A stretch of 57,464 nucleotides of DNA from a virus (taxonomy: Duplodnaviria; Caudoviricetes). A program made the translations under genes and the position numbers. Location: the IMG/VR virus record IMGVR_UViG_3300044272_001842, positions 1 through 57,464 of that record; one strand, written 5' to 3'. How positions within the stretch are numbered: the first letter of the stretch is position 1; every line of letters begins with the position of its first letter. Positions 6,055-21,613 of this stretch are shown here, piece by piece. The notes below the pieces were generated by a model, which saw nothing but the letters and a program-made list of their open reading frames with translations, had not been told where the DNA came from and did not search any database.

Positions 6055-6122
6055 CTCACCACTTTCTGACTGGTTACTTATAATACACCCAAAACAAAAT
6101 ATCACCTAAACTTTTTTAGTCC

Positions 6123-6149: not shown

Positions 6150-6281
6150 ATACTAGATATCGTATATTATAATATCTGATGGATTACTTAGATAACTTTT
6201 TTGTTTTATTACTATATATAAAAGTGCATAATATTTTGGTAGGCAATCCTGCCTACATAGAAAGTAACGGAGTAGAAAGCC

Positions 6282-7150: not shown

Positions 7151-7152
7151 AA

Positions 7153-7935
7153 ATGGCAAATGAAGTAACTAAAAAGAGTGCTACAAATGTTGCACTAAAT
7201 AGCTTTGAGGAGTTTGGTTCGCTAGGGTTTGAGGAAACACGTACAGATGATATGGCTGTGCCTTTCCTTAGAATACTTGCACAGCTAAGTCCACAAGTTA
7301 ATAAACGTGAGGGTGCTTACGTTGAAGGAGCAGAGGCAGGAATGGTATTTAATACTGTTTCTAACAAAGTGTATGACGGTGAACAAGGTGTGCTTGTAGT
7401 ACCTTGTTACTATAATCGTAGGTTTGTGGAGTGGGCTCCTAGGGAAAAAGGTGGTGGATATTTTGGTAGCTTCCACCCTGATGACCCCATAACTCAAACT
7501 ACTACTAAAAATGAACGTGGTGAAGATGTGCTACCAAGTGGTAATCTACTCACAAACACGGCTCAGTTTTTTGTAATACTAATTGATGAAGATGGTCCTC
7601 AGCGTTGTTTAATTACAATGAGTAGTACACAATTACGTAAAGCTCGTAAGTGGGTAACGCAAATGAACTCACTTACGTCAGTAGGTAAAAACGGTACTTT
7701 CGTTTTACCTATGATGTCACATAAATACCAACTAACAACAGTAGCAGAATCTAATGATAAAGGTTCTTGGTTTGGTTGGGATATACATAAGGTAGGTATG
7801 CTTGACCTTAGTCAAGAACGTGACCTTTTTGATATGGCAGTAGAGTTTGCAAAGTCTGTAAAAGCTGGAGAAGTAGAGGTAAAAGAAACACCTGAAACTC
7901 CACAAAAACAGGCTGATGACGACTCGCCATTCTAA
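7153..7935 (+). CDS. Putative single-stranded DNA-binding / annealing protein
   Basis: Acidic C-terminal tail ending DDDSPF; NDKGSWFGW; position in the replication module. Confidence 0.55.
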   Translation: MANEVTKKSATNVALNSFEEFGSLGFEETRTDDMAVPFLRILAQLSPQVNKREGAYVEGAEAGMVFNTVSNKVYDGEQGVLVVPCYYNRRFVEWAPREKGGGYFGSFHPDDPITQTTTKNERGEDVLPSGNLLTNTAQFFVILIDEDGPQRCLITMSSTQLRKARKWVTQMNSLTSVGKNGTFVLPMMSHKYQLTTVAESNDKGSWFGWDIHKVGMLDLSQERDLFDMAVEFAKSVKAGEVEVKETPETPQKQADDDSPF

Positions 7936-7966
7936 CAACAGTAGGAGTTGATCGCCTACCGTTGCG

Positions 7967-8002
7967 GAACGGTGTACATTTGCGCTCAAATGTACACCGT
8001 TC
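7967..8002. other. Perfect 16-bp inverted repeat with a 4-nt loop upstream of the primase RBS
   Basis: GAACGGTGTACATTTG-CGCT-CAAATGTACACCGTTC. Confidence 0.9.
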
Positions 8003-8017
8003 TACCTCTTGGAGTTT

Positions 8018-9535: not shown

Positions 9536-9660
9536 TATTTAGAAATTTATTAAGTAAAATATTTCCTTGGATACAACCAAAAGGTTCTGTATCTGTGCAA
9601 GTACAAGGTGCTTCTTCTACCACAGCTAAAAAACCTAGAGGTCGACCTAAGAAAAAATGA
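9532..9660 (+). CDS. 42-aa peptide with C-terminal AT-hook-like motif (not in ORF track)
   Basis: MIFRNLLSKIFPWIQ...KKPRGRPKKK; ATGA overlaps with both neighbouring genes. Confidence 0.65.
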   Translation: MIFRNLLSKIFPWIQPKGSVSVQVQGASSTTAKKPRGRPKKK

Positions 9661-11174
9661 ATATAATAATAGGTCCTCCTGGAACAGGCAAAACTACCTT
9701 TTTGCTAAATAAAGCTGAAGAATATATGCAGAAAGGTGTGCCACCAGATCGTATAGGCTATTTTGGATTTACACGCAGAGCGGCTGAAGAAGCTATGAAT
9801 CGAGCTATTTATAAGTTTAGATTGCACAAGAAAGACTTGCCTTTTTTCCGTACTCTTCACAGTTTAGCTTTTATGCAGATGGGTGTGAATACTTCACAGA
9901 TTATGACATCTGATAAATTTAGTGAAGTAGGTGAGTGGTTAAAGATAGGTGGATTTTTTGGTAATGCGATGAGTGATCAAGGTCCGTATAAAGATTTTGG
10001 ATATGGGGATAAGTTTTTAGAAATTATAAATATAGCACGTATCCAGCAACAACCTTTAAGGTCTGTATATAATGCTTCTACTGTTCCACTTAAAACGGAT
10101 TGGGCTAGGGTTGATTATGTTGATCGTGGTCTAAAAGCATGGAAAGAACACTACAACCTATTTGATTATACAGATATGTTAGAGCAGTTCTGTTATAGAC
10201 AGTTAGCTCCAAAACTAGAGGTTGTTTTTATAGATGAAGCACAAGATTTATCCCCTTTACAATGGTCTATGGTGCATCAATTACAAGCTAATTCCAAGGA
10301 GATGTTTGTAGCTGGAGATGACGACCAAGCCATTTTCCGTTATGCGGGAGCAGATGTAGACTACTTCATAGGGCTCAGTGGTTCCGTTACCGTTCTCGAC
10401 CAAAGTTACAGGATTCCCTCCGATCACCATGCACTTAGTGAGAAAGTTATTCAAAGAGTCGTTAACCGTAGAGCCAAACAATTCAATCCAAGGCAGGATA
10501 AAGGGGGTGTTTTCTGGCATAGACACTCCGAAGAAGTTGATATGTCCCAAAGCGATTGGCTTCTACTGAGTAGAACAACAAGAGGTGCTAGGCAAATAGA
10601 AGAAGAAGTTCGCCGAAGGGGACACCTTTATACTTATAATGGCAGTAAATCTATAGATGGTAAAGTGTTAGAAGCTGTAAGGCTGTGGGAAAATTTACGT
10701 AACGGACAGTCTATGAACGTAGAACAAGTGCGTACTATATATAGCCAGATGCTTATTGGCACTCAAGTAGAGTATGGTCATAAAACTTTTGGTAAAGGGC
10801 AGATTGACCAAAGATATTCGTTACAAGATCTACAAGATTTTCATGGGTTACTTCATAATCTTCCATGGGATGAAGGGTTGGGTAAGATATCTGATAGTGA
10901 TAAAAGGTATATTAAGGCTTGTCTGCGTAAAGGTGAATCACTTACAAAAGAGCCACGTATACGGATATCTACAATACATTCTGCAAAAGGAGCACAGGCA
11001 ACAAATGTTATGATGCTAACAGATACCATGCGTAGATCATACTCTATGTGGCGCAAGTTTGATAACGAGCATTTTGATGAAGCTCGTGTGTTTTATGTTG
11101 GTTTAACGAGAGCATTAGAAAACTTACATCTAATACACCCAATGTTTAGTAGAGGATATCAGATCCCTGCTTAG
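9657..11174 (+). CDS. UvrD/Rep-family SF1 helicase
   Basis: GPPGTGKT, DEAQD, AGDDDQAIF, QSYR, STIHSAKG, YVGLTRA. Confidence 0.92.
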   Translation: MNIIIGPPGTGKTTFLLNKAEEYMQKGVPPDRIGYFGFTRRAAEEAMNRAIYKFRLHKKDLPFFRTLHSLAFMQMGVNTSQIMTSDKFSEVGEWLKIGGFFGNAMSDQGPYKDFGYGDKFLEIINIARIQQQPLRSVYNASTVPLKTDWARVDYVDRGLKAWKEHYNLFDYTDMLEQFCYRQLAPKLEVVFIDEAQDLSPLQWSMVHQLQANSKEMFVAGDDDQAIFRYAGADVDYFIGLSGSVTVLDQSYRIPSDHHALSEKVIQRVVNRRAKQFNPRQDKGGVFWHRHSEEVDMSQSDWLLLSRTTRGARQIEEEVRRRGHLYTYNGSKSIDGKVLEAVRLWENLRNGQSMNVEQVRTIYSQMLIGTQVEYGHKTFGKGQIDQRYSLQDLQDFHGLLHNLPWDEGLGKISDSDKRYIKACLRKGESLTKEPRIRISTIHSAKGAQATNVMMLTDTMRRSYSMWRKFDNEHFDEARVFYVGLTRALENLHLIHPMFSRGYQIPA

Positions 11175-11261
11175 TTGGTCGCTATGAGTATATTTTATTA
11201 TACTTGGTGCGTATCTACAGGCATAATTTAATATAAGTAAATTGCTATAGAAGGAGCACAC

Positions 11262-11531
11262 ATGGAAACAGTAAAATACTTAACAAGAGACTTTATTATA
11301 AAGTTAAACAACAGAGCTATTCAGCGCAATGCTAACCGTACCCTCAAGGCTAGATTTGTTAGTAAACTTCCCGATAATTGTAAATACCCTATTATTGAGC
11401 AGTTATTACACAATGATGTTGAGATGCGTTGCCATATAGCTTACAATGACAAAGGCGATGTTTGTGTACTTGACATACCTTTGTCTGACTATAATAATTT
11501 ACCTACGGTTGACGTAGCTATTAATGCCTAG
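11262..11531 (+). CDS. Hypothetical protein
   Basis: GAAGGAG RBS; 89 aa. Confidence 0.7.
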   Translation: METVKYLTRDFIIKLNNRAIQRNANRTLKARFVSKLPDNCKYPIIEQLLHNDVEMRCHIAYNDKGDVCVLDIPLSDYNNLPTVDVAINA

Positions 11532-11552
11532 TTTTTTAGAAAGGAGAACAAT

Positions 11553-12584
11553 ATGGCACACCAAGTAGAAACAATGGCTTATGCAGGAGAAGTTCCTTGG
11601 CATGGTCTAGGTAAAAAAGTTGAGCACAAACTTACACCAGAGGAGATGCTCAAAGCCGCTGGTCTTGATTGGACAGTTAGCAAACGTCCTGTTTACTATG
11701 CGGACAAACCAAATACATGGGACTTAAATGACCCACGAGGTGAAGCAAAAATGCTTCGTGCTCAAGACGACTACCTTATAGTGCGTGACTCAGATAACCG
11801 TGTGCTATCACATTGTGGCGAAGGTTTTGTACCTTTTCAAAACCATGAGACCATGTCTTTCTTCAAAAAGTTTACCGATGCTGGTCATATGGAGATGGAT
11901 ACTGCTGGTAGCCTTAGTGATGGTGAGCGTGTATGGGGTCTTGCTAAAATTAAAAAAGGTTTTAAGTTAGCAGGAGGCGACGACATTGAAGGTTATTTGT
12001 TAATGGCTAACAGTCACAAGGTTGGCACAGCAATGACCATGATGTTTACACCCATACGAGTTGTATGTAACAACACAATAACTCTAGCTCTGGAGTCAAA
12101 TGGTATTACTGGTAAGTTTAGAGTACTGCACTTACAAATGTTTGATGAGGAAATTATGCAAGCCGCTGAGACTGCACTCGGTATTAGTGGTGAGCAAATG
12201 AAAACATTCCAAGAGCAGTCTGAGTTCCTTGCCAATAAAAGAGCTACTAGAGATCAGGTAGATAATTTTATAGCAGAGTTATTCCAGCCTAAATTACTTA
12301 TCGAGCGTGGCAAAACTAAAGAAGCAGACTTGCCTCCCTTGCATGAGGAGTTTAGTAAAACTTCACAAATGGTATTAGAAGCTATTGAAACATCTCCTGG
12401 ACATAGCAAAGCTTCTGCCAAAGGCACTTGGTGGGGAGCACTCAATGGTGTGACATATGTTATGGATCACCAAAAACGTGCAAAGAGTCGTGACCACGCA
12501 CTTAACTCCGCATGGTTTGGTACAGGTGCTACGACTAAACGTAAGGCTATGACCAAAGCTCTTGAGTTTGCTAAAGTATCATAA
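11553..12584 (+). CDS. DUF932-family phage/plasmid protein
   Basis: MAHQVETMAYAGEVPWHGLG, AGLDWTV, TAGSL, TPIRVVCNNT, GTWWGALNGVT. Confidence 0.85.
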   Translation: MAHQVETMAYAGEVPWHGLGKKVEHKLTPEEMLKAAGLDWTVSKRPVYYADKPNTWDLNDPRGEAKMLRAQDDYLIVRDSDNRVLSHCGEGFVPFQNHETMSFFKKFTDAGHMEMDTAGSLSDGERVWGLAKIKKGFKLAGGDDIEGYLLMANSHKVGTAMTMMFTPIRVVCNNTITLALESNGITGKFRVLHLQMFDEEIMQAAETALGISGEQMKTFQEQSEFLANKRATRDQVDNFIAELFQPKLLIERGKTKEADLPPLHEEFSKTSQMVLEAIETSPGHSKASAKGTWWGALNGVTYVMDHQKRAKSRDHALNSAWFGTGATTKRKAMTKALEFAKVS

Positions 12585-12607
12585 GAGCAAGTAATACTTT
12601 ATAAAGT

Positions 12608-12636
12608 TCCCTACATAGGCTATGCTTATGTAGGGA
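12608..12636 (+). other. Intergenic stem-loop
   Basis: TCCCTACATAGGC-TAT-GCTTATGTAGGGA; no T tract. Confidence 0.6.
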
Positions 12637-12659
12637 GTAGTTCATAGAGAGGAACAATC

Positions 12660-13322
12660 ATGCCACAAAATAAAACATATGTCGTATTAGAAAACGACAA
12701 CACTTCTAGTAGGAATGAAGCTTATAGCTTTTTTAAATTTCCTTCGTTACGTGACACCAAAAAATGCGATGAGATCAATGAGCGTAGTTTAGTGTTTTCT
12801 ACTGTAGAGCAGTTAACAGAACATTATAGTGAAAAAGAGTTAATTTCCATAATGGATGCCACCTATAAAAAAGATGTTAAAGAAGCTTTAGAGCAAGAGT
12901 CATTAAACACTATTCGTAAAATAGGAACACATAGTACGTTCTTTAATTTTGTAGATCTTGTTGCTCGTAATTATAAACCCATCAGTAAGGAGAAACCAAT
13001 GACTGATAAAACTATAGTACATATCGATCAATTTAATAATAAAACGCAAAAACATGAAGCTAGTAAGTCACCTATTAAAAAGTCGCAGTACAATCCTGAT
13101 GCTAAAATACTTGCAGTTAATGGTGAGTCGGGAGTTTATGTAAACCCCTATCGGTCAGGTAGTAATAGATGGCATAACTTTGAAGCCCTTATAAATTCTG
13201 GCACAGTTGGTGAAGCACTAGTGGCTATGAAAAAACTAGTTCCAGGAGGTAATAGTGTAGACATTAAGTTAGCACTACAACGTGGAGCTATAGAGTTGGA
13301 GGAGCCTAGTAATGGAAAATAA
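12660..13322 (+). CDS. Hypothetical protein
   Basis: 220-aa ORF with AGAGGA RBS. Confidence 0.7.
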   Translation: MPQNKTYVVLENDNTSSRNEAYSFFKFPSLRDTKKCDEINERSLVFSTVEQLTEHYSEKELISIMDATYKKDVKEALEQESLNTIRKIGTHSTFFNFVDLVARNYKPISKEKPMTDKTIVHIDQFNNKTQKHEASKSPIKKSQYNPDAKILAVNGESGVYVNPYRSGSNRWHNFEALINSGTVGEALVAMKKLVPGGNSVDIKLALQRGAIELEEPSNGK

Positions 13323-13512
13323 AACAGAAAGTAAAATCAAAGATTGCGTTATATGTGGTGATAAGATAGAGCCACACGTAGATAAATACGGTAATCCATA
13401 TTGGTATGATGGGCATAATGCAGAGCCTGTAGCAGAAGGGAGATGTTGTAATACTTGTAATGAGTATGATGTAATCCCAGCTCGTATAATGGCTATGATA
13501 GGACATCATTAA
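13312..13512 (+). CDS. Small Cys-rich (zinc-binding) protein
   Basis: CVIC...GHNAEPV..GRCCNTCN; GGAGGAG RBS. Confidence 0.7.
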   Translation: MENKTESKIKDCVICGDKIEPHVDKYGNPYWYDGHNAEPVAEGRCCNTCNEYDVIPARIMAMIGHH

Positions 13513-13513
13513 A

Positions 13514-14407
13514 ATGTTAGTAGAAAGTTTTTATAGCTGGATAAACGAACGGCATAATATATATTTACAAAGAGTGGAGGGGCTACCAGCACCGTGGACT
13601 GATGATCCTATATTAAAAGAGTATAAGTTTACTAATCCTTTCCGTGAAAACGATAGGGTAACTGTTTGGATGCGTAAAAATTGGACTGATGTACATAATA
13701 ATGCTCCTCATGGTGAAATTATATTTAATTGTTGTTTATTCCGCATGACTGGCACAAGCGAGTTTGCTGAAGAGCATGGTTGGGTATATGAAAATGAAGG
13801 CTGGGATGCTGAGCGCACTAAAGAAATAATAGAGCGTCGGTTAGCAAAAGGTTTACGAACTTTTACGGGAGCATATATAATTACTAATCAAGGTGTAAAA
13901 GCAAGAAAATCTGAGGTTGTAGTTGATAATTTTCTTAAGCCGATCTGGGAAAATAAGGACAAGGTGGCGGAAGTTGCTTGCCAAACCAATTCGCTCAAAA
14001 AAACCCACGAGGAGATGGCTAGGTATCGAGGGTGGGGAGGAGGAGGTTTTATGTCTTACGAAGTCGTTTCCGACCTCAACTACACACCTGTACTGGACAA
14101 GGCAGAAGACCGTTTTAGTTGGGCAAATGCAGGTCCAGGAGCAAAACGAGGATTAAATAGGATACATGGTAGAGACCTTAAAAAAGTTTTGCCGCAAGAT
14201 CAAGCAAACTTAGAGATGCATCATTTACTTAAATTAGCACCTCAACATATAGCAGACCATGTACCGCTCAAACAAGTAGATATGCGATGCATAGAGCATA
14301 GCTTATGTGAGTGGGATAAATACCAACGAGTATTTCTTAAGCAAGGTAGACCTAGAAGTAGGTTTACATTTACAGAAATTGTAGTGCCAGAAGGGAGAGT
14401 AATATAA
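13514..14407 (+). CDS. aGPT-Pplase1-type (HMUDK helical domain family) DNA base-modification enzyme
   Basis: ERHNIY...PWTDDPILKEYKFTNPFRENDRVT, FTGAYII, HhH-like GWGGGGFMSYEVVSDL, GPGAKRGL, IEHSLCEWDKY. Confidence 0.75.
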   Translation: MLVESFYSWINERHNIYLQRVEGLPAPWTDDPILKEYKFTNPFRENDRVTVWMRKNWTDVHNNAPHGEIIFNCCLFRMTGTSEFAEEHGWVYENEGWDAERTKEIIERRLAKGLRTFTGAYIITNQGVKARKSEVVVDNFLKPIWENKDKVAEVACQTNSLKKTHEEMARYRGWGGGGFMSYEVVSDLNYTPVLDKAEDRFSWANAGPGAKRGLNRIHGRDLKKVLPQDQANLEMHHLLKLAPQHIADHVPLKQVDMRCIEHSLCEWDKYQRVFLKQGRPRSRFTFTEIVVPEGRVI

Positions 14408-15192
14408 TGATACCTATTTATATACCTACTAGGGGAAGAATAAACAAACAAACCACATGGGAAAGTATAGGCTCAAAAGCTAGATCAATGGCTGTGTTAG
14501 TTTGCCCAGATAATGAAGTATCTACACATGAAAGTTATGGCAGGAAGACATTGAGCCGAGGTGATATAACAGGTATAAATAATGCACGACAGTTTATACT
14601 AAAACATGCGTTGGAGAACGAACATGATAAAATTATTATTTTGGATGACGATCTTATATTTGGTCGTCGCATATCTGACGTAGCACCTAGTCTACGTAAA
14701 ACCAAACCAGAAGAAATGCATGAGCTATTTGATATTATGAGTGAACGTTTAGATTCATATGTGCATGTTGGTGTAAGCCCAAGACAAATGAATGATAAAC
14801 ATTTTCCTGCTCGTTGGAAGGAATGTATGAGGCAAAATGCTGTTCATGGTATTCAACCAAAAGTATTAAAAAAGGAACATCTACGTTATGACACAGTAGA
14901 CCTCATGGAAGATTATTATATGACACTCAGTTTATTTAAACTAGGCTATCCTAATATTATGATTACTGACTGGACGTGGGATCAACGTGGTACATCAGGT
15001 GCTGTAGGAGGCTGTAGTTCGTACCGTAATGCTGAACTACAAGAACGTGCAAGTAAACAACTTGAAGCTATGTTTCCAGAACATGTGAAGGCTGTTAAAA
15101 AAGAAACTAAAACAGGTTGGGATAATATGAAAGTACGTTGGGATGTACGTGTACAATGGCGAAAGGCGGCAATGGATGGAAACTGTATCTAA
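14407..15192 (+). CDS. GT-A glycosyltransferase (TET-associated / base J glucosyltransferase-like family)
   Basis: IYIPTRGR N-terminus, IIILDDDL (DxD), MEDYYMTL, GGCS. Confidence 0.75.
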   Translation: MIPIYIPTRGRINKQTTWESIGSKARSMAVLVCPDNEVSTHESYGRKTLSRGDITGINNARQFILKHALENEHDKIIILDDDLIFGRRISDVAPSLRKTKPEEMHELFDIMSERLDSYVHVGVSPRQMNDKHFPARWKECMRQNAVHGIQPKVLKKEHLRYDTVDLMEDYYMTLSLFKLGYPNIMITDWTWDQRGTSGAVGGCSSYRNAELQERASKQLEAMFPEHVKAVKKETKTGWDNMKVRWDVRVQWRKAAMDGNCI

Positions 15193-16177
15193 TAACTATC
15201 AAGACCCACCTAACTCTATACAAGTAGAATTTGTTGAGGGCTGTAATTTAGCTTGTTCTTTTTGTGGTATACAGGCGATACGTGATAATGGTGCTGATGG
15301 TCCGAACGATATACACGGTAAAAAGTCTGGTCCATATAAAAACCTGACTATACAAACAGCCGAAGCTATTTGTGACCAAATCAGGGAGGCTAACTGGAAT
15401 CCTCGTATTGAGTTTGCCATGCACGGTGAGCCAACTATGCACCCTTTCTTCGTTGAGATGGTAGGCTTGTTTAGAAAAAAGTTACCAAAAACCTCTCTTA
15501 TGATGACGAGTAATGGAGGAGGGTTGTTAAAAGATACTGAGGAAACAGTCAATAAACTAATGGACGCAGGAATCAATGTTTTGTTTTTAGATAATTATGA
15601 ACGTATAAAAATAGTTGATAAAATTAAAGAACGGTACAATGGTCCGCACCCTGTTTACGAATACCCTAGTGATCGCCAAGCTAACCCACACCGTAGAAGA
15701 AGACATGATGATCATGATATAGTAGTTGGTATGGATCTTACACTCGCAACAAATGGCACTCATGCACAAGTAAGCAATCATGCTGGATCTGCTTTCCCAC
15801 TAAATTATAACCAATCAGGTAAACGATGTGCAAAACCTTTCCGTGAGTTAAGTATACGTTGGGATGGTAGTGTGGCTGTATGTTGTAACGATTGGATTGG
15901 ATGGTATAAGTGTGGTAATTTACATCAAACAAATTTATCGGATATATGGCAAGGTGATGCTTTCCATGCCGCACGTCAAAAATTGTATCACGGACAACGC
16001 AACTTCGGTCCGTGTAACGGTTGTGACAATGTAACACTTCGTAACGGTTTGTTACCAGACCGTATGGGTAGACAAAGTTTACCTGAGCCAGATGCACAAA
16101 CAGAAGAACATATACAAAAAGCTCTTGGCAATGGCACGTATACACCCAAAGTCAAAAAGCATTTTGACTTTATTTAA
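15176..16177 (+). CDS. Radical SAM enzyme with C-terminal SPASM/twitch domain
   Basis: CNLACSFC (CX3CX2C), HGEPTMHP, TSNG, CAKPF...DGSVAVCCND...GNL...PCNGC; likely start METVSN at 15176. Confidence 0.9.
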   Translation: METVSNNYQDPPNSIQVEFVEGCNLACSFCGIQAIRDNGADGPNDIHGKKSGPYKNLTIQTAEAICDQIREANWNPRIEFAMHGEPTMHPFFVEMVGLFRKKLPKTSLMMTSNGGGLLKDTEETVNKLMDAGINVLFLDNYERIKIVDKIKERYNGPHPVYEYPSDRQANPHRRRRHDDHDIVVGMDLTLATNGTHAQVSNHAGSAFPLNYNQSGKRCAKPFRELSIRWDGSVAVCCNDWIGWYKCGNLHQTNLSDIWQGDAFHAARQKLYHGQRNFGPCNGCDNVTLRNGLLPDRMGRQSLPEPDAQTEEHIQKALGNGTYTPKVKKHFDFI

Positions 16178-16234
16178 ACACCATACAGCCACTAGACGCT
16201 TGCTTTTAGTAGTTGTACACGTAATAATAAACTC

Positions 16235-16250
16235 AGCCGCTCGAGCGGCT
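16235..16250. promoter_or_regulatory. Perfect 16-bp palindrome just downstream of a sigma70-like promoter
   Basis: AGCCGCTCGAGCGGCT; TTGCTT at 16200 and an AT-rich -10-like box upstream. Confidence 0.55.
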
Positions 16251-16278
16251 TTAAAACCACATAGAAAGGCGGTAAAAA

Positions 16279-17283
16279 ATGGCAACATTTAATAGCACTA
16301 TTGTGAGGGGTGCTCATACTATCACAGCTAGAAATGTCAGTGATGCTCTCTGGCTTGCAAAACAAAAATTAGAAAATAGTGGTACAAAGGTTGAAACAAG
16401 AAATGGTAGGGCTATTGAGTTAAGAGAGCCTATAGCTATTGTATATAATCAACCTATGGAGCGAGTATTATTCTACCCTGAACGTGATGCTAACCCTATT
16501 TTCCATTTTATGGAAAGCTTATGGATGTTAGCAGGACGGCATGATGTTGAGTGGATTGCTAAGTTCAACAAACGTATGGCAGAGTATAGTGATAACGGTA
16601 AACAACTTCAAGGTGCGTATGGCTATAGATGGCGCAAATACTTTCATACCGATCAGTTAGTAAAAGTAATTTATAGGCTACGCACATACGAAAATGATAG
16701 ACGAACTGTTTTAACAATGTGGGATGCTGAGGAAGATTTGCGGTTGGATAATGATTGTAAAGATCATCCTTGTAACACTCATATATATTTTAGTATCCGT
16801 GATAGAACATTAGATATGACAGTATGCAATCGTAGTAATGATATGATATGGGGAGCGATGGGTGCTAATGCTGTGCATATGTCAATCTTACAAGAGTATG
16901 TAGCCGCTAGAGTCAATGCCAAAGTAGGTATCTATACTCAGTTTAGTAATAATCTACATGCCTATTTAGACACCCTCAAAACTTTAAAAAATATGCAACC
17001 TGATTATAATTCTTATGGGTCACGTGGTATTTATCCTTCACGCATCGTAACTAGAGCAACTTCCTTTATAGAAGAGCTAGAGTTGTTTATGGAAGACCCC
17101 ATGAAAAAACATCCATATAGCAATAAAATATTTCCAGAGTTAGCTCAACCTATGTGTAGAGTTTGGGAAGCTTGGAAACAAAAAGAAATATTTTTAGCAT
17201 TAGATTTATGTAAAGAAATAGTTCCTGATGATTGGCATATAGCTGTACATGAGTGGTTAGAAAGAAGAGTGAACAATGGATAA
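16279..17283 (+). CDS. Thymidylate-synthase-fold enzyme, probable dUMP hydroxymethylase
   Basis: RDANPIFHFMESLWMLAG, GAYGYRWR, catalytic PCN, RSNDMIWGAMGAN (Asn at the uracil-specificity position), NNLHAY. Confidence 0.82.
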   Translation: MATFNSTIVRGAHTITARNVSDALWLAKQKLENSGTKVETRNGRAIELREPIAIVYNQPMERVLFYPERDANPIFHFMESLWMLAGRHDVEWIAKFNKRMAEYSDNGKQLQGAYGYRWRKYFHTDQLVKVIYRLRTYENDRRTVLTMWDAEEDLRLDNDCKDHPCNTHIYFSIRDRTLDMTVCNRSNDMIWGAMGANAVHMSILQEYVAARVNAKVGIYTQFSNNLHAYLDTLKTLKNMQPDYNSYGSRGIYPSRIVTRATSFIEELELFMEDPMKKHPYSNKIFPELAQPMCRVWEAWKQKEIFLALDLCKEIVPDDWHIAVHEWLERRVNNG

Positions 17284-17581
17284 AAAGTATAGTGATATTA
17301 TAGAAAAGGTAAAACAATTATCGTATGAGGATGTGTTTGGTTTAGATGAAGCTGAAAAAAGTTATGGTGATAGTTGGAAGCAACGTGGCGGTGTAGGTGC
17401 ATTTATGATGTTAGCACGTAAATGGGATCGCCTTGAAAAACAAGTAGAACAACAAAACTATGATGTTTTTAAAGCGGCTGAACTAGACATGCGGGATGAG
17501 GGTATCCTTGATGATTTAAAGGATTTACGTAGGTATTTATTTTTAGTAGAGGCTGAGATACGTATGCGTAATGGAAAGTAA
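17276..17581 (+). CDS. Nmad1/DUF1599-like all-alpha nucleotide-modification-associated protein
   Basis: YGDSWK...RKWDRLE...ILDDLKDLRRY pattern; adjacent to the TS-fold gene. Confidence 0.65.
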   Translation: MDKKYSDIIEKVKQLSYEDVFGLDEAEKSYGDSWKQRGGVGAFMMLARKWDRLEKQVEQQNYDVFKAAELDMRDEGILDDLKDLRRYLFLVEAEIRMRNGK

Positions 17582-17741
17582 ACTTGATAAAACTGTCGTA
17601 GCACAATGCGAATGTTTAAGAGATAAAAAAGTATTGACATTTAGGCAACTCAAAAATAAGTGGCCGATCTGTCGTTACTGTAATCAACCAATGAAAGTAA
17701 AGGCAGATGATGCAGTTCCCCTTGTTCACACCACCGACTGA
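17571..17741 (+). CDS. 56-aa putative zinc-ribbon protein (not in ORF track)
   Basis: MESKLDK...CEC...WPICRYC; fills the gap between Nmad1 and polA, overlapping both. Confidence 0.55.
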   Translation: MESKLDKTVVAQCECLRDKKVLTFRQLKNKWPICRYCNQPMKVKADDAVPLVHTTD

Positions 17742-19629
17742 GTGGGTAATGCCAGATGGCTACCCTGATATATCGGAAGCACGTGAAGTAGCCATAGACC
17801 TTGAAACAAGAGACCCTAACCTTAAATCTCTAGGGAGTGGGTGGGCTAGGAAAGATGGTCACGTGATTGGTATAGCTGTAGCAGTAGAAGGTAGTTCATG
17901 GTACTTCCCCATACGACATGAAAACGGCAGTAATTTAGATGCAAAGCAAACACTTCGGTGGCTTGCTTCTGTCTGTTCTGTAGAACGAGATTACATAATG
18001 CACAATGCAATGTACGACCTCGGATGGTTATGGGCAGAAAACATAGAAGTAAAAGGTCGTGTTGTTGATACTATGATTGTTGGTGCATTGCTTGATGAAA
18101 ACAGATTTAGTTACGCATTGAATGCACTTGGTAAAGATTATTTAAATGAACGTAAGAGTGAAAAAGAGTTATATGAAGCCGCAGAATCATTTGGGGTAAA
18201 TGCTAAGTCAGAAATGTGGAAGCTCCCTGCACATTTTGTCGGTCAATATGCTGAGCAAGATGCGGCATTGACACTTAGATTATGGAATAATTTCAAAGGC
18301 TTAATCGTTAAAGAAGATATAGCTAACATATTTGATTTAGAAATAAATGTTCTTAAAGTGGTTTTTGAAATGCGTAAGAAAGGAGTGCGTGTAGATATAG
18401 CTAAAGCTGAGGAACTAAAAGAACAATTAGAAAAACAAGAGCAAGAAGTATTGTCCGCTGTTGGTGGTGGTGATATAGATATATGGGCGGCATCAAGTAT
18501 AGCTAAAGCATTTGATAAACAGGGGTTACGATATCCAAAAACAGAAAAAACTAAAGCTCCTAGTTTTACTAAAAACTTTCTGGCTAATCATGAACATGCT
18601 CTTCCAAAAGCAGTAGTAAGAGCTCGTGAACTTAATAAAGCACGTACGACTTTTATAGATACTATACTAAAACACAATCATAATGGGCGCATACATGCTG
18701 AAGCACATAGCCTCCGTAGTGATGAAGGTGGCACAGTCACAGGTCGTTTTAGTTATAGTAACCCGAACTTACAGCAAGTTCCCGCTCGTAATGCTGAAAT
18801 AGGTCCAATGATTCGCGGATTGTTTTTACCAGAACAAGGTGAGTTGTGGGGTGCATTTGATTACAGTAGCCAAGAACCACGACTTGTTGTTCATTATGCG
18901 AGTTTGTTAAAGTTAGATGGCGCACAAGCTTTTGCTGATCAATATAATATAGATGCTAACACAGACTTTCATCAGATGGCGGCTGATATAGTGGGTGTAC
19001 CTCGTAAACAAGCTAAAGATATAAACTTAGGATTATTCTATGGCATGGGTAAGAACAAACTCGCAGAGCAGTTAGGTTTAGATTATGAAGATGCTAAAGA
19101 ACTATTTGCAGAGTATCATGGAAAAGTACCCTTTGTCCAACAACTCTCTGAGTATGTAGTAAATCGTGCTTCTAAAAAAGGAGCTATACGCACTCTGTTA
19201 GGTAGGCGATGTAGGTTTGATAAGTGGGAACCAAATGCTTATGGAACTTATAAACCCATGAGTCATGCTGATGCACTAGCAGAACATGGTCCAGCTATCA
19301 AACGTGCTTTCACTTATAAAGCTTTGAATAGATTAATACAGGGTAGTGCGGCTGATCAAACAAAAGCCGCTATGGTCGCATTGTATAAGGAAGGCATTAC
19401 ACCACTGATACAAGTTCATGATGAGTTAGATATATCTGTGGCTGAGCCAGAGCTGGGTAAGAAAATACAAGAAATTATGGAAACGTGTGTGGATATGCAG
19501 ATACCTAGTATTGTTGATGCAGAGTTTGGTCCAAGCTGGGGTGAAGCAAAAAAGACATTTAGTGATAAACCTTGGAGTAGAGGAGTAAAAGATGGCAGAA
19601 CAAAAATGCAAGACAACACCAAACATTAA
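17707..19629 (+). CDS. polA: Family A DNA polymerase with 3'-5' exonuclease
   Basis: Exo motifs DLET, HNAMYD, YAEQD; TGRFS, PNLQQ, DYSSQEPR (A), RKQAKDINLGLFYG (B, Leu at the 762-equivalent), QVHDEL (C). Confidence 0.96.
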   Translation: MMQFPLFTPPTEWVMPDGYPDISEAREVAIDLETRDPNLKSLGSGWARKDGHVIGIAVAVEGSSWYFPIRHENGSNLDAKQTLRWLASVCSVERDYIMHNAMYDLGWLWAENIEVKGRVVDTMIVGALLDENRFSYALNALGKDYLNERKSEKELYEAAESFGVNAKSEMWKLPAHFVGQYAEQDAALTLRLWNNFKGLIVKEDIANIFDLEINVLKVVFEMRKKGVRVDIAKAEELKEQLEKQEQEVLSAVGGGDIDIWAASSIAKAFDKQGLRYPKTEKTKAPSFTKNFLANHEHALPKAVVRARELNKARTTFIDTILKHNHNGRIHAEAHSLRSDEGGTVTGRFSYSNPNLQQVPARNAEIGPMIRGLFLPEQGELWGAFDYSSQEPRLVVHYASLLKLDGAQAFADQYNIDANTDFHQMAADIVGVPRKQAKDINLGLFYGMGKNKLAEQLGLDYEDAKELFAEYHGKVPFVQQLSEYVVNRASKKGAIRTLLGRRCRFDKWEPNAYGTYKPMSHADALAEHGPAIKRAFTYKALNRLIQGSAADQTKAAMVALYKEGITPLIQVHDELDISVAEPELGKKIQEIMETCVDMQIPSIVDAEFGPSWGEAKKTFSDKPWSRGVKDGRTKMQDNTKH

Positions 19630-20113
19630 AACTTTAATGACAGCATGGGACGCACAGTTCTTAATTAGATATCATACTGTTCCATTACAAACAGAGAGGC
19701 AAACCGTGGGAGCTCATTCATATGCAGTAAGTGTTCTATTAAATCAACTTTGGCCTGATAGTAGTAAACAACTCATTTTATCAGCACTTTACCACGATGT
19801 AGCTGAAGTCATATTAGGTGATATCCCTGCTACTGCTAAATGGGGATACCCAGAGTTAAGAAAAGCTTTTGAAAAAGCTGAAACACAAGTAATGAAAAGT
19901 TTAGAGTTAGATTTTGTTTTAACTAAAAAAGAAAAAGACCGATTGAAAATGGCTGACATGTTAGAGTTGGTGATGTATTGTAATCGGCACTCTTCGTTGC
20001 CACAAATGAAAATGATACGAGATGCTGGAAACGACTACTTATTAGAAAATTTTATTAATAATAAAGACTTTGAACCTGTAGCTAGTTTGCTAAGACATTT
20101 AGGTTTGGATTAA
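19592..20113 (+). CDS. HD-domain deoxynucleotidase (YfbR-like)
   Basis: RYH...TVGAHS...ALYHDVAEVILGDIP...KMADMLE. Confidence 0.85.
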   Translation: MAEQKCKTTPNIKTLMTAWDAQFLIRYHTVPLQTERQTVGAHSYAVSVLLNQLWPDSSKQLILSALYHDVAEVILGDIPATAKWGYPELRKAFEKAETQVMKSLELDFVLTKKEKDRLKMADMLELVMYCNRHSSLPQMKMIRDAGNDYLLENFINNKDFEPVASLLRHLGLD

Positions 20114-20204
20114 AAAGATAATAAAAATGGGGTCGTAAGGGTAATAATTGCCAATAGGTATGTTATATTATATATAGGTATTGCATTATAGAAAGGATGT
20201 ACCT

Positions 20205-20447
20205 ATGGATTGGCAACAGTATGAAGACTATATGCTTAGTTATGCTAAGTCTTACACTATAACAGAGTTCCTTGGTCGGGCTACATATAATACATACCAT
20301 TATGATACTATTGTTTCATGTGCAAAAGCATATCATGATATGCGTAAAAACTCACCTAACCGTAGGGTTCTTGTGTATGCTGTGTGTCAGCCACCTAATC
20401 GTAAGCTAAGTGTTAGCTTACCTATAGCACCCGAGTTACTACCATGA
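20205..20447 (+). CDS. Hypothetical protein
   Basis: AGAAAGGA RBS before ATG 20205. Confidence 0.65.
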   Translation: MDWQQYEDYMLSYAKSYTITEFLGRATYNTYHYDTIVSCAKAYHDMRKNSPNRRVLVYAVCQPPNRKLSVSLPIAPELLP

Positions 20448-20926
20448 ATTTATTTTGGTTATCACTAGACCCCGAGCGGTGTGCTCAAATGCATTGCGAT
20501 AAGCATGTCGTTAAGATGCCATTAGAAACAGTACAGATGTTATGTACTGCTCACTGGATACATGGTAATGATGCACCTTATTTACCTGTGCATCACAAAC
20601 ACCCTTGTACTCTGTGGGTAGCACAAACGATAGAAAACTACCGCCTCGCTTGGTGGTTAGGATATTATTTATTTAAAGAGTTTACATACCGATATAACAA
20701 TGTTCACCAATCAGAGTCGGTATTGTATTCGGTGCGTTGTCACCCTCCTGCTATGACTGCCCGAGGTTACACTAAGTTCCCTCAAGCCATGCCAGAAGAG
20801 TACAAGCACCATGATGTAATGGTCGCATATCGTGACTATTATGTTGGTGAGAAAAAAGGTTTTGCTAAGTGGACTGGCAGACCTGTTCCAAACTTTATGC
20901 AGAAAGATAAACACTATGGAAACTAA
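20444..20926 (+). CDS. Pyrimidine-dimer DNA glycosylase (DenV-like family)
   Basis: MNLFWL..DP..CAQMHCDKHVVKM.LE..QML..AH, HPCTLW, FPQAMP, AYRDYY. Confidence 0.7.
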   Translation: MNLFWLSLDPERCAQMHCDKHVVKMPLETVQMLCTAHWIHGNDAPYLPVHHKHPCTLWVAQTIENYRLAWWLGYYLFKEFTYRYNNVHQSESVLYSVRCHPPAMTARGYTKFPQAMPEEYKHHDVMVAYRDYYVGEKKGFAKWTGRPVPNFMQKDKHYGN

Positions 20927-21371
20927 AGATATAAAAATTGATATTGAGACTTACAATGTTCTTCGTCAAGCGGCAGATGCTGAGTGCCGTTCTATACCAA
21001 TGCAGATCCGTTGGTTAGTTAAAAACTCTAATAGTGGTTCTGTTCCACGTGTGGTGCAAACTCAAATACCTACTATGAGGGTTTGTAAAACTAAACCTAA
21101 AAGAGTTAAGGCTCAAGCGAATGCTCAGATAACTAATCCAGATACTAACTTGAATAAAGTTTTAATAATATTTGATAGTGGATTGACTTTATGTAGTAAA
21201 GACTTTAGGCATGTAGTCCATGCTTGGGGGGAAGTAGATGCGTCACGTGAGCTAAATGCGCTAGAGAGACGTGGCGATGTGGTTAAGATTGGTAATACCA
21301 AACCATATCACTATTGTCTTTCTCCGCTAGGACGTGAGCGTATAAATATAATCAAAAGGAGTAAGCTATGA
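20916..21371 (+). CDS. Putative DNA-binding protein (N-terminal ribbon-helix-helix-like)
   Basis: IKIDIETYNVLRQAADAECRSIPMQIRWLV resembles Arc/MetJ-type RHH. Confidence 0.5.
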   Translation: METKDIKIDIETYNVLRQAADAECRSIPMQIRWLVKNSNSGSVPRVVQTQIPTMRVCKTKPKRVKAQANAQITNPDTNLNKVLIIFDSGLTLCSKDFRHVVHAWGEVDASRELNALERRGDVVKIGNTKPYHYCLSPLGRERINIIKRSKL

Positions 21372-21613
21372 AACCTTTGTGGGAAATCTATAAGGTAAAA
21401 ACTACCACTAACGAAGTTCACTGGATATTAGATGGACAACTCGTTAAATCACCCATCGTATTTTATGGGTTAGAAAATTTACATATCTTCATGGAATCAT
21501 TTCATGAGATTAATAAAGTGCATACTCCGACTAAAGTCCGGTCGGGGGATGCATCAACACCAAAGCACCCATATGATAGGGATGATCAATATTGGGAGGA
21601 GACACAATCATGA
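21368..21613 (+). CDS. Hypothetical protein
   Basis: AAGGAG RBS; ATGA overlaps at both ends. Confidence 0.65.
   Translation: MKPLWEIYKVKTTTNEVHWILDGQLVKSPIVFYGLENLHIFMESFHEINKVHTPTKVRSGDASTPKHPYDRDDQYWEETQS

What the first reader, a model, noticed from the sequence alone, without database searches (positions are those of the whole stretch)
13514..20113. Thymidine hypermodification cluster with an unusual enzyme combination
Seen: contiguous genes for an aGPT-Pplase1-type enzyme, a GT-A glycosyltransferase, a radical SAM/SPASM enzyme, a TS-fold enzyme with Asn specificity, Nmad1, PolA and an HD nucleotidase. Established: dUMP hydroxymethylases replace T with 5-hmdU in phages such as SP10, PhiW-14, ViI and M6; aGPT-Pplase family enzymes act in further substitution of hmdU in DNA; and JGT-type glycosyltransferases make base J (glucosyl-hmU). 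Inference: this phage may make a sugar-substituted hmU that is further tailored by radical chemistry, a base I cannot match to a characterised pathway.
Basis: partly seen in the sequence, partly recalled or inferred. Interest (0 to 1): 0.85.

Follow-up and report, generated by a model that had tools for sequence, protein, structure and literature searches.

The report
Sugar-type thymine modification gene cluster
An uncultured ocean phage carries genes that most likely replace thymine with hydroxymethyluracil, attach a sugar to it and rework that sugar with a radical enzyme, giving a DNA base that nobody has yet measured.

Summary
The gene row is real. Six of the seven named genes pass Pfam cut-offs. 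The seventh ("Nmad1") is supported only by language-model and structure look-alikes. The window is a 98%-complete HTVC023P-type marine podophage. The thymidylate-synthase-fold (TS) enzyme carries the published dUMP-hydroxymethylase signature (Asp162, Cys165, Asp188, Asn197), so it is not a plain thymidylate synthase. No 5-hmdU DNA kinase, clade-2 amino-acid transferase or TET/JBP is found in the genome.

The glycosyltransferase has the R...DDD...EDY motif of phage and base-J DNA glycosyltransferases. The radical SAM enzyme is BtrN-like (Twitch). In other viruses it is fused to this GT-A type (2 proteins) or to a GT-B fold (1).

In 131 related non-redundant loci the slot between the aGPT-Pplase1-type gene and the TS gene holds swappable glycosyltransferase cassettes (88 loci) or a kinase (11). 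The Pplase1-type protein is structurally closest to PaMx11 PUGT and keeps a Glu/Cys motif like PUGT's catalytic pair.

Best reading: a kinase-free, sugar-type hmU hypermodification with radical tailoring. The chemistry is unmeasured.

A 2022 pelagiphage paper noted part of the gene set but not the radical SAM enzyme. This scan has flagged similar modules on other DNA. Verdict: a new variant of a known kind.

The parts
11553..12584 (+). DUF932 protein (343 aa). It belongs to the island inserted between helicase and PolA. It travels with the module in relatives, but its position varies. Role unknown.
   Evidence: PF06067 at 6e-46. Absent between helicase and PolA in 023Pt_psg01, DSL-LC04 and HTVC027P. 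Present in most related loci and downstream of PolA in L029 and L179-L186.
12660..13322 (+). Conserved 220-aa ORF of unknown function. It sits where M6/YuA-type phages have the 5-hmdU DNA kinase, but it is not a kinase.
   Evidence: No Pfam, PHROG or NCBIfam hit. No P-loop in the translation. No similarity to YuA gp13 or the Sonora kinase. 43-95% identical in relatives. Atlas score 0.80, which is chance level.
13312..13512 (+). 66-aa Cys-rich (CxxC...CCxxC) zinc-ribbon-like ORF directly upstream of the Pplase1-type gene.
   Evidence: Translation. 89% identical copy in L023. Most relatives instead carry an NrdR-like Zn ribbon (PF22811, 2.8e-11) between the Pplase1-type gene and the GT.
13514..14407 (+). 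aGPT-Pplase clade-1 / HMUDK_hel protein ('Pp1', 297 aa). It is a homolog of YuA gp14 / M6 gp55, has a PUGT-like all-helical fold, and carries an invariant EHxLCE motif (E261, C265).
   Evidence: PF18723 at 1.7e-50. 34% identical to YuA gp14. Invariant columns listed. Model pLDDT 91.4. Best structural match is 8z2m_A PUGT, Z 11.1, rmsd 4.1, 223 residues aligned. The motif aligns with E243/C247 of the clade-2 enzyme, but only weakly (hhalign E 0.065).
14407..15192 (+). TAGT/JGT-like GT-A glycosyltransferase (261 aa) with R9/R11...D80-D82...E168-D169-Y170.
   Evidence: PF20691 at 4.5e-18; phrog_842 at 5.4e-47. The motif residues are invariant in 12 of 12 aligned relatives. Motif positions. Published motif.
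15143..16177 (+). Radical SAM enzyme with a BtrN-like Twitch/SPASM auxiliary-cluster domain (344 aa). CX3CX2C at C34/C38/C41; auxiliary Cys at C229, C247, C291 and C294.
   Evidence: Pfam hits. BtrN 4m7s/4m7t at E 4.7e-9, with the Cys residues aligned. C34, C41 and the four auxiliary Cys are invariant in 38 of 38 aligned homologs; C38 is conserved in 90% or more. Fusions to GTs.
16279..17283 (+). TS-fold enzyme (334 aa) with the dUMP hydroxymethylase signature D162/C165/D188/N197.
   Evidence: 45% identical to the TS homologs of M6-like phages. Below all NCBIfam ThyA cut-offs.
17276..17581 (+). 101-aa acidic protein, possibly a distant Nmad1/DUF1599 relative. It always follows the TS gene.
   Evidence: No Pfam hit. 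Atlas look-alikes. Conserved at 60-97% identity in relatives.
17707..19629 (+). Family A DNA polymerase with 3'-5' exonuclease (640 aa).
   Evidence: 50-55% identical to the polymerases of HTVC023P-type pelagiphages.
19592..20113 (+). HD-domain, YfbR-like 5'-deoxynucleotidase (173 aa). Homolog of YuA gp18.
   Evidence: tblastn of YuA gp18 gives 2.8e-20.

Best explanation
This is a kinase-free, sugar-type thymidine hypermodification module of an HTVC023P-type marine podophage.

Step 1 (inferred from active-site signature and homology): the TS-fold enzyme makes 5-hydroxymethyl-dUMP from dUMP. Host kinases raise it to the triphosphate. The HD nucleotidase, and perhaps the small Nmad1-like protein, deplete thymidine nucleotides. 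The phage PolA then builds hmU-containing DNA.

Step 2 (inferred from family, motif and gene context): the TAGT/JGT-like GT-A transfers a sugar from a host nucleotide-sugar onto the 5-CH2OH of hmU in DNA, giving a base-J-like O-glycoside.

Step 3 (inferred from the BtrN likeness, the gene overlap and natural GT::rSAM fusions): the Twitch radical SAM enzyme abstracts a hydrogen from a sugar carbon. It thereby oxidises, epimerises or dehydrates the sugar. It could act on the DNA-bound sugar or on the donor just before transfer.

Step 4 (role open): the Pplase1-type protein is a PUGT-fold protein with a conserved Glu/Cys pair. It is found in every variant of the module, so it acts on hmU-DNA independently of which decoration is added.

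What is shown: gene identities, motifs, fusions and cassette variation. What is not shown: any chemistry.
For: TS-fold enzyme. It has Asp162 at the L143-equivalent position, Cys165, Asp188 at the D169-equivalent and Asn197 at the N177-equivalent. The mapping uses the MilA and T4 TS alignments. The same four residues occur in 167 of 167 related loci whose TS match covers these positions. PMC13326640 gives L143D/E as the hydroxymethylase mark, D169N as the 5-hydroxylase mark and N177 as the dUMP mark. The enzyme is 45% identical to the TS homologs of M6-like phages, whose modification derives from hmdU (PMC8989533).

GT. It passes the Pfam TAGT cut-off. [quoted passage not shown] Full-length homologs sit beside pyrimidine hydroxymethylase genes in unrelated phages.

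rSAM. The best solved relative is BtrN, with four auxiliary Cys aligned.
- P0256 and P0253 are TAGT::rSAM fusions.
- P0125 is a GT-B::rSAM fusion; its partner family models as GT-B (pLDDT 89.5; HepE at E 5e-10, TMq 0.65).
- Among 131 non-redundant loci with the slot fully visible, the rSAM occurs in 33: 31 beside a recognised GT, 2 beside an unknown 323-aa ORF, and 0 in a locus where a kinase was detected.

Slot variation. The same slot holds GT-A+rSAM (25), GT-A alone (9), GT-B type B (11), GT-B type B + rSAM (6), GT-B type C (37), a kinase (11), rSAM with an unknown ORF (2) or nothing recognised (30). Sister cassettes add an FkbM methyltransferase, a nucleotidyltransferase/mannose-6-P-isomerase or an NAD epimerase/dehydratase. 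That mix is the pattern expected of sugar tailoring.

The block is an insertion between helicase and PolA relative to 3 of 3 inspected relatives without it.
Against: No product has been measured, and no cultured phage with this rSAM exists in the phage collection. Only 4 of 50,697 records match, all at 24.6% identity or less.

The genome lacks a dNMP or thymidylate kinase, a dCMP deaminase and a dUTPase. It has no recognisable nucleotide-sugar gene in the parts I scanned. ORFs after 29852 were not scanned with Pfam. Full replacement of T and the sugar supply therefore depend on the host.

The rSAM is below every NCBIfam cut-off (N_Twi_rSAM 57.6 vs 170), and I made no structural model of it.

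The parts are separable. Nine non-redundant loci have the GT-A without the rSAM. Twenty-nine loci have the Pplase1-type gene abutting TS with no GT or kinase within 6 kb.

The loci were gathered by similarity to this window, so the counts are not independent events.
Confidence: 0.55

Rival explanations
1. The glycosyl group is only an activating or leaving group that takes the place of phosphate. The GT glycosylates hmU. The Pplase1-type enzyme then attacks C6 with Cys265, expels the sugar and installs another nucleophile or a hydride. The final base would then not be a glycoside.
For: GT cassettes and the kinase occupy the same place next to the Pplase1-type gene, and they nearly exclude each other: 88 loci with a GT against 11 with a kinase of 131, with one locus holding both (L176). 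The Pplase1-type protein keeps E261/C265 in the same motif as PUGT E243/C247 (PMC11472151). PUGT is its best structural match. PMC8989533 states that hmdU is converted either to a hypermodified base or to thymine, and I found no enzyme for the thymine branch named in the passages I read.
Against: A sugar alkoxide is a poor leaving group compared with phosphate. Sugar-tailoring genes in sister cassettes (FkbM methyltransferase, epimerase/dehydratase, the rSAM itself) would be pointless if the sugar were discarded. No clade-2 transferase or donor-forming enzyme is present. The motif alignment is statistically weak (hhalign probability 0.85%).
Confidence: 0.12
2. The radical SAM enzyme acts on the base, not on the sugar. 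For example it could oxidise the 5-CH2OH of hmU in the way of an anSME/BtrN-type dehydrogenase, or form a C-C bond at the 5-methylene. The GT would act before or after it.
For: BtrN-type enzymes oxidise alcohols (BtrN is the best hit; the chemistry is recalled knowledge). The only rSAM proven in thymidine hypermodification, M6 gp53, acts on the base substituent (PMC8989533).
Against: The rSAM is unrelated to M6 gp53 at BLAST level (YuA gp12 against the window, best E 1.3). It is never seen without a neighbouring gene in the slot, and that gene is a recognised GT in 31 of 33 loci. It is fused to GTs of two different folds. That ties it to glycosyl transfer rather than to hmU as such. The 29 loci that have TS and Pplase1 but no GT also lack it.
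Confidence: 0.12
3. The module does not decorate DNA. The TS-fold enzyme serves nucleotide supply, and the GT and rSAM modify another target, such as a host glycan, a protein or a free nucleoside as in nucleoside-antibiotic pathways.
For: No chemistry is known. The best solved relative of the TS-fold enzyme is MilA, from a nucleoside-antibiotic pathway. GT-A and SPASM enzymes have many non-DNA substrates (general knowledge).
Against: The genes sit inside the replication block between helicase and PolA, and they are flanked by two proteins known only from hmU-DNA systems. The GT belongs to the DNA-GT family and has its motif. The TS signature is hydroxymethylase-type in 167 of 167 relatives.
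Confidence: 0.05

Closest known systems
Thymidine hypermodification clusters of Pseudomonas phages M6/YuA and PaMx11 (also ViI, PhiW-14, SP10): dUMP hydroxymethylase, 5-hmdU DNA kinase, clade-2 aGPT-Pplase (AADT/PUGT), and PLP, rSAM, FAD or acetyltransferase tailoring
   Same: A TS homolog of the same clade (45% identity). A clade-1 Pplase homolog directly upstream (34% identity). PolA and an HD protein downstream (YuA gp18 and gp21). Post-replicative decoration of hmU is the shared logic (PMC8989533).
   Different: No 5-HMUDK (PF18748: nothing at E<=10; tblastn). No clade-2 transferase, PLP enzyme or M6-type rSAM. A glycosyltransferase and a Twitch rSAM stand in their place.
Base J pathway of kinetoplastids (JBP1/2 thymine hydroxylase plus JGT glucosyltransferase)
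   Same: A GT-A of the TAGT/JGT-like kind with R...DDD...EDY, predicted to glycosylate hmU in DNA.
   Different: hmU is made before replication by a TS-fold hydroxymethylase, not by a dioxygenase (no Tet_JBP in the record). A radical SAM partner and a Pplase1-type protein are present. The setting is a phage.
Phage 5hmC / 5hoC glycosylation systems (T-even glucosyl-hmC; TET-linked GT-A and GT-B pathways; RB69/DLP3 arabinosyl-5-hydroxycytosine)
   Same: A TS-fold enzyme creates a hydroxyl handle and phage GT-A or GT-B enzymes decorate it. phrog_842 is named after the T-even beta-glucosyl-HMC-alpha-glucosyltransferase. The cassettes are glycodiverse.
   Different: The specificity residue is Asn (uracil), not Asp. 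D169 is retained, so this is not a 5-hydroxylase. 'Radical SAM' has 0 occurrences in the GT preprint I searched.
BtrN (2-deoxy-scyllo-inosamine dehydrogenase), a Twitch-domain radical SAM enzyme of butirosin biosynthesis
   Same: Best solved sequence relative (E 4.7e-9). CX3CX2C is present, and the four auxiliary-cluster Cys align.
   Different: Only local similarity. The phage enzyme is about 75 residues longer. The substrate would be a DNA-linked or nucleotide-linked sugar. It is below the NCBIfam N_Twi_rSAM cut-off.
PaMx11 gp46 PUGT (PDB 8z2m), the 5-PmdU glycinyltransferase
   Same: Best structural match of the Pplase1-type model (Z 11.1, rmsd 4.1 A, 223 residues). A Glu-x-x-x-Cys motif lies at the same place near the C-terminus.
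   Different: 11% identity. No phmmer hit to any PDB chain at E<=10. Different Pfam family. No phosphorylated substrate is available in this phage. The homologous M6 gp55 was not needed for glycine transfer (PMC8989533).

Membership tests
dUMP hydroxymethylase (TS superfamily) | Catalytic Cys (E. coli C146) | tested here: met
   C165 in 'HPCN' aligns with the TS and MilA catalytic Cys.
dUMP hydroxymethylase (TS superfamily) | Asn at the N177 position (dUMP rather than dCMP) | tested here: met
   N197 aligns with the Asn of T4 TS and with the Asp of MilA. Same residue in 167 of 167 relatives.
dUMP hydroxymethylase (TS superfamily) | Acidic residue instead of Leu at L143, which admits water (PMC13326640, section 24) | tested here: met
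   D162 lies at Cys-3, the same offset as the MilA Asp.
dUMP hydroxymethylase (TS superfamily) | Product is 5-hmdUMP | not testable with these tools
   Needs an enzyme assay or LC-MS.
5-hydroxy-pyrimidine (5hodCMP-type) synthase | D169N substitution | tested here: not met
   D188 in 'RSND' is Asp.
Canonical thymidylate synthase ThyA | Score above the NCBIfam equivalog cut-offs, and Leu at L143 | tested here: not met
   The best bacterial ThyA (PRK01827-type) model scores 63.9 bits against a cut-off of 327. The highest-scoring TS model overall, TIGR03283 (methanogen-type), scores 93.9 against 174.55. The L143-equivalent residue is Asp.
TAGT / JGT-like DNA GT-A glycosyltransferase | Pfam PF20691 above the gathering score | tested here: met
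   66.4 bits against 27.5, covering profile positions 1-205 of 205.
TAGT / JGT-like DNA GT-A glycosyltransferase | R...DDD...EDY/F active-site motifs (preprint 10.1101/2023.12.21.572611) | tested here: met
   R9/R11, D80-D82 and E168-D169-Y170 are invariant in 12 of 12 sequences.
TAGT / JGT-like DNA GT-A glycosyltransferase | Transfers sugar to a hydroxymethyl base in DNA | not testable with these tools
   Needs an assay on hmU-DNA.
Twitch/SPASM radical SAM enzymes (BtrN-like) | CX3CX2C cluster motif plus a C-terminal auxiliary 4Fe-4S Cys set | tested here: met
   C34/C38/C41, and C229/C247/C291/C294 aligned to the BtrN Twitch region.
NCBIfam NF033640 N_Twi_rSAM subfamily | Score above the curated cut-off | tested here: not met
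   57.6 bits against 170.
M6 gp53-type rSAM glycinyl-thymine isomerase | Sequence similarity to M6 gp53 / YuA gp12 | tested here: not met
   tblastn of YuA gp12 against the window gives a best E of 1.3.
Kinase-dependent thymidine hypermodification pathway (Lee et al. 2018, 2021) | 5-hmdU DNA kinase (PF18748) | tested here: not met
   No match at E<=10 in the 98%-complete record. tblastn with two kinases gives a best E of 0.98.
Kinase-dependent thymidine hypermodification pathway (Lee et al. 2018, 2021) | Clade-2 aGPT-Pplase (amino acid:DNA transferase) | tested here: not met
   tblastn with YuA gp10 and Sonora 039 gives best E values of 2.6 and 0.078. No profile search was run for this family.
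aGPT-Pplase clade 1 / HMUDK_hel | Pfam PF18723 above the cut-off | tested here: met
   172.4 bits against 25; 172.3 bits in the six-frame search.
aGPT-Pplase clade 1 / HMUDK_hel | Catalytic Glu/Cys equivalent to PUGT E243/C247 | tested here: inconclusive
   E261 and C265 are invariant in 33 of 33 sequences. The motifs align, but hhalign gives E 0.065 and probability 0.85%. The fold match to PUGT is Z 11.1, below the tool's caution line of about 13 for helical folds. No residue-level superposition was available.
Nmad1 / DUF1599 | Pfam PF07659 match | tested here: not met
   No hit at E<=1 on the protein and none at E<=10 in six frames. Atlas look-alikes only.
Base J pathway | TET/JBP thymine dioxygenase | tested here: not met
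   PF12851 finds nothing at E<=1 in the record.

The most novel reading that the evidence does not exclude
Abundant ocean pelagiphages carry a DNA 'glyco-type' locus with a constant core and a swappable cassette.

- The constant core is the dUMP hydroxymethylase plus a PUGT-fold Glu/Cys enzyme. That enzyme would work on unphosphorylated hmU in DNA. For instance, it could be the enzyme, not named in the passages I read, that turns left-over hmU into thymine.
- The swappable cassette holds GT-A, GT-B, a methyltransferase, an epimerase or the Twitch rSAM, and it sets which sugar the DNA wears.

In this phage the GT and rSAM pair would make a radical-tailored (keto, deoxy or epimerised) glycosyl-hmU. 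That would be a new DNA base, and the first radical SAM enzyme acting on a DNA-linked sugar.
Probability: 0.3. Interest if true: 0.85.

Novelty: new variant of a known kind. Interest (0 to 1): 0.66.

Why it matters
HTVC023P-type phages infect SAR11, the most abundant bacteria of the surface ocean (PMC9599517, abstract). A bulky, variable sugar on their thymines would have several consequences:
- It would shape restriction evasion and phage-host matching.
- It could bias virome sequencing.
- It would add a third route to thymidine hypermodification, direct glycosylation with radical tailoring, beside the amino-acid and polyamine routes.

The enzymes could also be useful tools. These include an hmU-specific DNA glycosyltransferase set with different sugars, a radical SAM enzyme that may edit sugars on DNA, and a kinase-independent relative of PUGT.

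The kinase-free design also gives a clean setting in which to find what the conserved clade-1 Pplase protein does. I found no function assigned to it in the M6 and ViI papers I read (passages only).

Tried and rejected
Complex prediction of GT (alignment A3) with rSAM (alignment A4): the verdict was 'no answer' (score 0.02, mark 0.32). It counts neither for nor against binding.

Foldseek of the Pplase1-type model against the PDB gave no match at E<=0.001. The top hit was the HhH glycosylase 3knt at E 0.26. The wide VIA search was needed to find PUGT. phmmer of the Pplase1-type protein and of the GT against PDB sequences gave nothing meaningful.

Megablast of the cluster against 50,697 phage records gave no match.

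The 220-aa ORF at the kinase's syntenic place is not a kinase. I rejected the idea that it is a divergent 5-HMUDK.

I also considered that the Pplase1-type protein is a docking adaptor for the neighbouring enzyme (kinase or GT). I rate this unlikely for two reasons. Three unrelated GT types swap next to a conserved Pplase1 gene. In addition, 29 loci have it abutting TS with neither partner.

The 323-aa ORF upstream of the rSAM in L169, L171 and L172 has no Pfam hit and no profile similarity to the GT-B family (hhalign E 0.32). It remains unidentified. The N-terminal part of P0272 is only weakly like the GT-B family (E 4e-4 over 79 residues), so I do not count it as a fusion to a GT. The C-terminal 240 residues of P0322 have no Pfam family.

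The promoter and terminator scan of 9000-21500 showed no excess over shuffles (40 vs 39.7 promoter-like sites; 4 vs 7.1 terminator-like sites).

ORFs after 29852 were not scanned with Pfam.

Three sets may bear on the novelty claim:
- Fig. S15 of PMC8989533.
- Figs S4 and S5 of PMC9599517.
- Tables S4-S5 and Fig. S10 of the GT preprint, which list co-occurring domains and could mention radical SAM.

Full report
WHAT THE WINDOW IS. The window is a whole IMG/VR virus record of 57,464 bp, linear, estimated 98% complete by CheckV. Its family A polymerase is 50-55% identical to those of phage 023Pt_psg01, phage DSL-LC04 and Pelagibacter phages HTVC027P and HTVC023P. It therefore belongs with the HTVC023P-type marine podophages. 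In 023Pt_psg01, DSL-LC04 and HTVC027P the helicase gene is followed by PolA directly or after 2-3 small ORFs. In the window the two genes are separated by a block at 11262-17581, and an HD gene follows PolA. The finding lies inside this inserted island.

THE OBSERVATION. Pfam places six of the seven above the gathering scores: HMUDK_hel (the aGPT-Pplase1-type family), TAGT, Radical_SAM + SPASM, Thymidylat_synt, DNA_pol_A + exonuclease, and YfbR-like/HD. The 101-aa ORF called Nmad1 has no Pfam hit at E<=1, and DUF1599 finds nothing in six frames. Only ESM Atlas look-alikes point that way. The genes overlap or nearly abut. The order is kept in all 21 IMG/VR loci found with the rSAM protein, which are 74-90% identical to it.

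THE TS-FOLD ENZYME. A 2026 paper (PMC13326640; I read sections 24 and 28 as passages and a section) gives three diagnostic positions in E. coli ThyA numbering:
- N177: Asn for dUMP, Asp for dCMP.
- L143: Leu excludes water, Asp or Glu marks hydroxymethylases.
- D169: Asn marks 5-hydroxy-dCMP synthases.

The paper also says that MilA has Asp at both the L143 and N177 positions. In the phmmer alignments to MilA and to T4 thymidylate synthase, the window protein has Asp162 at Cys-3 (as MilA does), Cys165, Asp188 in 'RSND' and Asn197. The same four residues occur in 167 of 167 related loci whose match covers these positions. The protein is far below every NCBIfam thymidylate synthase cut-off. Its closest named relatives, at 45% identity, are the TS homologs of M6-like Pseudomonas phages, whose DNA modification starts from hmdU (PMC8989533, passages). 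I therefore read it as a dUMP hydroxymethylase.

WHAT IS MISSING. The whole record has no 5-hmdU DNA kinase (PF18748 at E<=10; tblastn with the YuA and Sonora kinases). tblastn also finds no clade-2 Pplase, PLP enzyme or M6-type rSAM. There is no Tet_JBP and no dCMP deaminase, dUTPase or thymidylate kinase. The ORF at the kinase's syntenic place (12660-13322) is not a kinase. The canonical phosphate-activated route is therefore not available.

THE GLYCOSYLTRANSFERASE. It passes the TAGT cut-off and matches phrog_842, which is named after the T-even beta-glucosyl-HMC-alpha-glucosyltransferase. A preprint on phage DNA glycosyltransferases (10.1101/2023.12.21.572611, passages) reports R...DDD...EDY/F as the shared active-site motifs of phage GT-A DNA glycosyltransferases and T. 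cruzi JGT. The window protein has R9/R11, D80-D82 and E168-D169-Y170, all invariant in 12 of 12 aligned relatives. Full-length homologs lie next to pyrimidine hydroxymethylase genes in an unrelated spring-water myovirus genome and in Brevibacterium phage LuckyBarnes.

THE RADICAL SAM ENZYME. It has CX3CX2C at C34/C38/C41. Its best solved relative is BtrN (E 4.7e-9), whose Twitch-domain Cys residues align with C229, C247, C291 and C294. C34, C41 and these four auxiliary Cys are invariant in 38 of 38 diverse homologs, and C38 is conserved in 90% or more. It is not related to the M6 isomerase.

The family is large. There are 1214 clusters at 90% identity with E<=1e-5. Among 50%-identity representatives, 154 reach E<=1e-30.

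Natural fusions exist:
- P0256 (579 aa) is TAGT::rSAM. Its GT part is 41% identical to the window's GT (E 2e-53), and Pfam finds TAGT at 69 bits.
- P0253 (588 aa) is a second TAGT::rSAM (TAGT 32.9 bits against a cut-off of 27.5).
- P0125 (704 aa) joins the rSAM to a 346-aa domain without a Pfam family. I modelled the stand-alone family of that domain (1587 hits): pLDDT 89.5. It is a GT-B fold, with HepE 4xsp at E 5e-10 and TMq 0.65, followed by many GT4 enzymes.

The same rSAM family is thus welded to glycosyltransferases of two unrelated folds. That ties it to glycosyl transfer.

A SWAPPABLE CASSETTE. Searching IMG/VR with the Pplase1-type protein and with a 38%-identical cousin gave 160 more loci.

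In 73 close relatives with the slot visible, the space between the Pplase1-type gene and TS holds one of the following:
- GT-A + rSAM: 26 loci, and the GT-A is never without the rSAM in this group.
- A GT-B of the P0125-partner type: 13 loci.
- A 418-450-aa ORF: 33 loci.
- Nothing: 1 locus.

Of 8 such large ORFs tested, 6 hit the GT4/GT1 Pfam families and 3 of those are above the cut-off.

After removing duplicates, 131 loci have both flanking genes:
- 37 GT-B type C
- 30 nothing recognised
- 25 GT-A + rSAM
- 11 GT-B type B
- 11 kinase
- 9 GT-A alone
- 6 GT-B type B + rSAM
- 2 rSAM with an unknown ORF

The rSAM never occurs in a locus where a kinase was detected. Sister cassettes also carry FkbM-type methyltransferases, a nucleotidyltransferase/mannose-6-phosphate-isomerase protein and an NAD epimerase/dehydratase. 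This is the look of sugar tailoring. These loci were collected by similarity and share ancestry, so the counts describe a pattern, not independent events.

THE Pplase1-TYPE PROTEIN. It is the homolog of YuA gp14 and M6 gp55. M6 gp55 was not needed for glycine transfer in vitro (PMC8989533). It accompanies the TS gene in every variant: kinase type, GT types, and 29 loci where it abuts TS with nothing else nearby. Its motif (I/V)EH(S/T/C)LCE(F/W/Y)DKYER is invariant.

In PaMx11 PUGT, the clade-2 enzyme, Glu243 binds the metal at O4 and Cys247 attacks C6 (PMC11472151, passages). A profile alignment places the window's E261 and C265 on the E-T-x-x-C of the YuA clade-2 protein, but the statistics are weak (E 0.065). 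My model (pLDDT 91.4) has PUGT 8z2m as its best match among 48,161 chains: Z 11.1, rmsd 4.1 A, 223 residues. HhH glycosylases and DUF2419 follow at Z 9.3. The tool warns that Z under about 13 can be a common arrangement for helical proteins.

I conclude that it is probably a catalytically competent relative of PUGT. Its role is open. PMC8989533 says that hmdU is turned into either the hypermodified base or thymine. The thymine branch is one candidate job for it, and that is my inference.

LITERATURE. PMC9599517 (passages) already reported TS plus aG/PT-PPlase1 as partner genes in HTVC023P-type clades. [quoted passage not shown] 'Radical SAM' occurs 0 times in it. A full-text search for radical SAM + glycosyltransferase + DNA hypermodification + phage found 0 papers. 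The other searches gave no description of this chemistry. Oligosaccharide-modified thymidines are known in SP-15, YerA41 and Carin-5, but on a pentyl linker and with other genes (PMC12686479). Supplements were closed.

EARLIER NOTES OF THIS SCAN. The scan has flagged similar kinase-free GT + rSAM modules in other genomes. I tested their main claims here independently.

VERDICT. The system is a new variant of thymidine hypermodification. The chemistry is still to be measured.

Noticed in passing
If hmU decoration is sequence-specific, as it is in M6 and ViI, this could be connected. I did not examine it.
   Followed up: no
window 13312-13512; L032:6855-7211: A 66-aa Cys-rich zinc-ribbon ORF lies just upstream of the Pplase1-type gene. 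Most relatives instead have an NrdR-like Zn ribbon (PF22811) between the Pplase1-type gene and the GT. A small zinc-binding protein seems to belong to the GT-A + rSAM cassette.
   Followed up: partly
window 11553-12584: A DUF932 gene travels with the modification module in many loci but changes position (upstream of Pplase1 here, downstream of PolA in L029 and L179-L186). It is absent from that stretch in 023Pt_psg01, DSL-LC04 and HTVC027P, which lack the module there.
   Followed up: partly
L116-L149 and L166 (29 loci): The Pplase1-type gene abuts the TS gene (gap 6-21 bp), with no glycosyltransferase or kinase within 6 kb. This is a minimal hmU core, which suggests the Pplase1-type protein has a job of its own.
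   Followed up: partly
L176: One locus carries both a 5-hmdU-kinase-like gene and a GT-A between the Pplase1-type gene and TS. It is a possible hybrid of the two routes.
   Followed up: no
P0126, P0264: Two rSAM homologs are interrupted by inteins with HNH/HINT domains, inserted in the radical SAM core or the SPASM domain.
   Followed up: partly
L182:7946-9400: A second HMUDK_hel protein (484 aa) with a 160-residue N-terminal extension lies in the same cassette as the ordinary Pplase1-type gene.
   Followed up: no
L111:6837-7700, L114:6485-7459: In the GT-B + rSAM lineage the cassette starts with a nucleotidyltransferase fused to a mannose-6-phosphate-isomerase/cupin domain. This hints that the sugar there is mannose-derived and made by the phage.
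   Followed up: partly
window 4618-9535: The early region holds an SNF2-type helicase on the minus strand, three Pam3 gp32-34-like proteins and an AEP-type primase with a PriCT domain.
   Followed up: no
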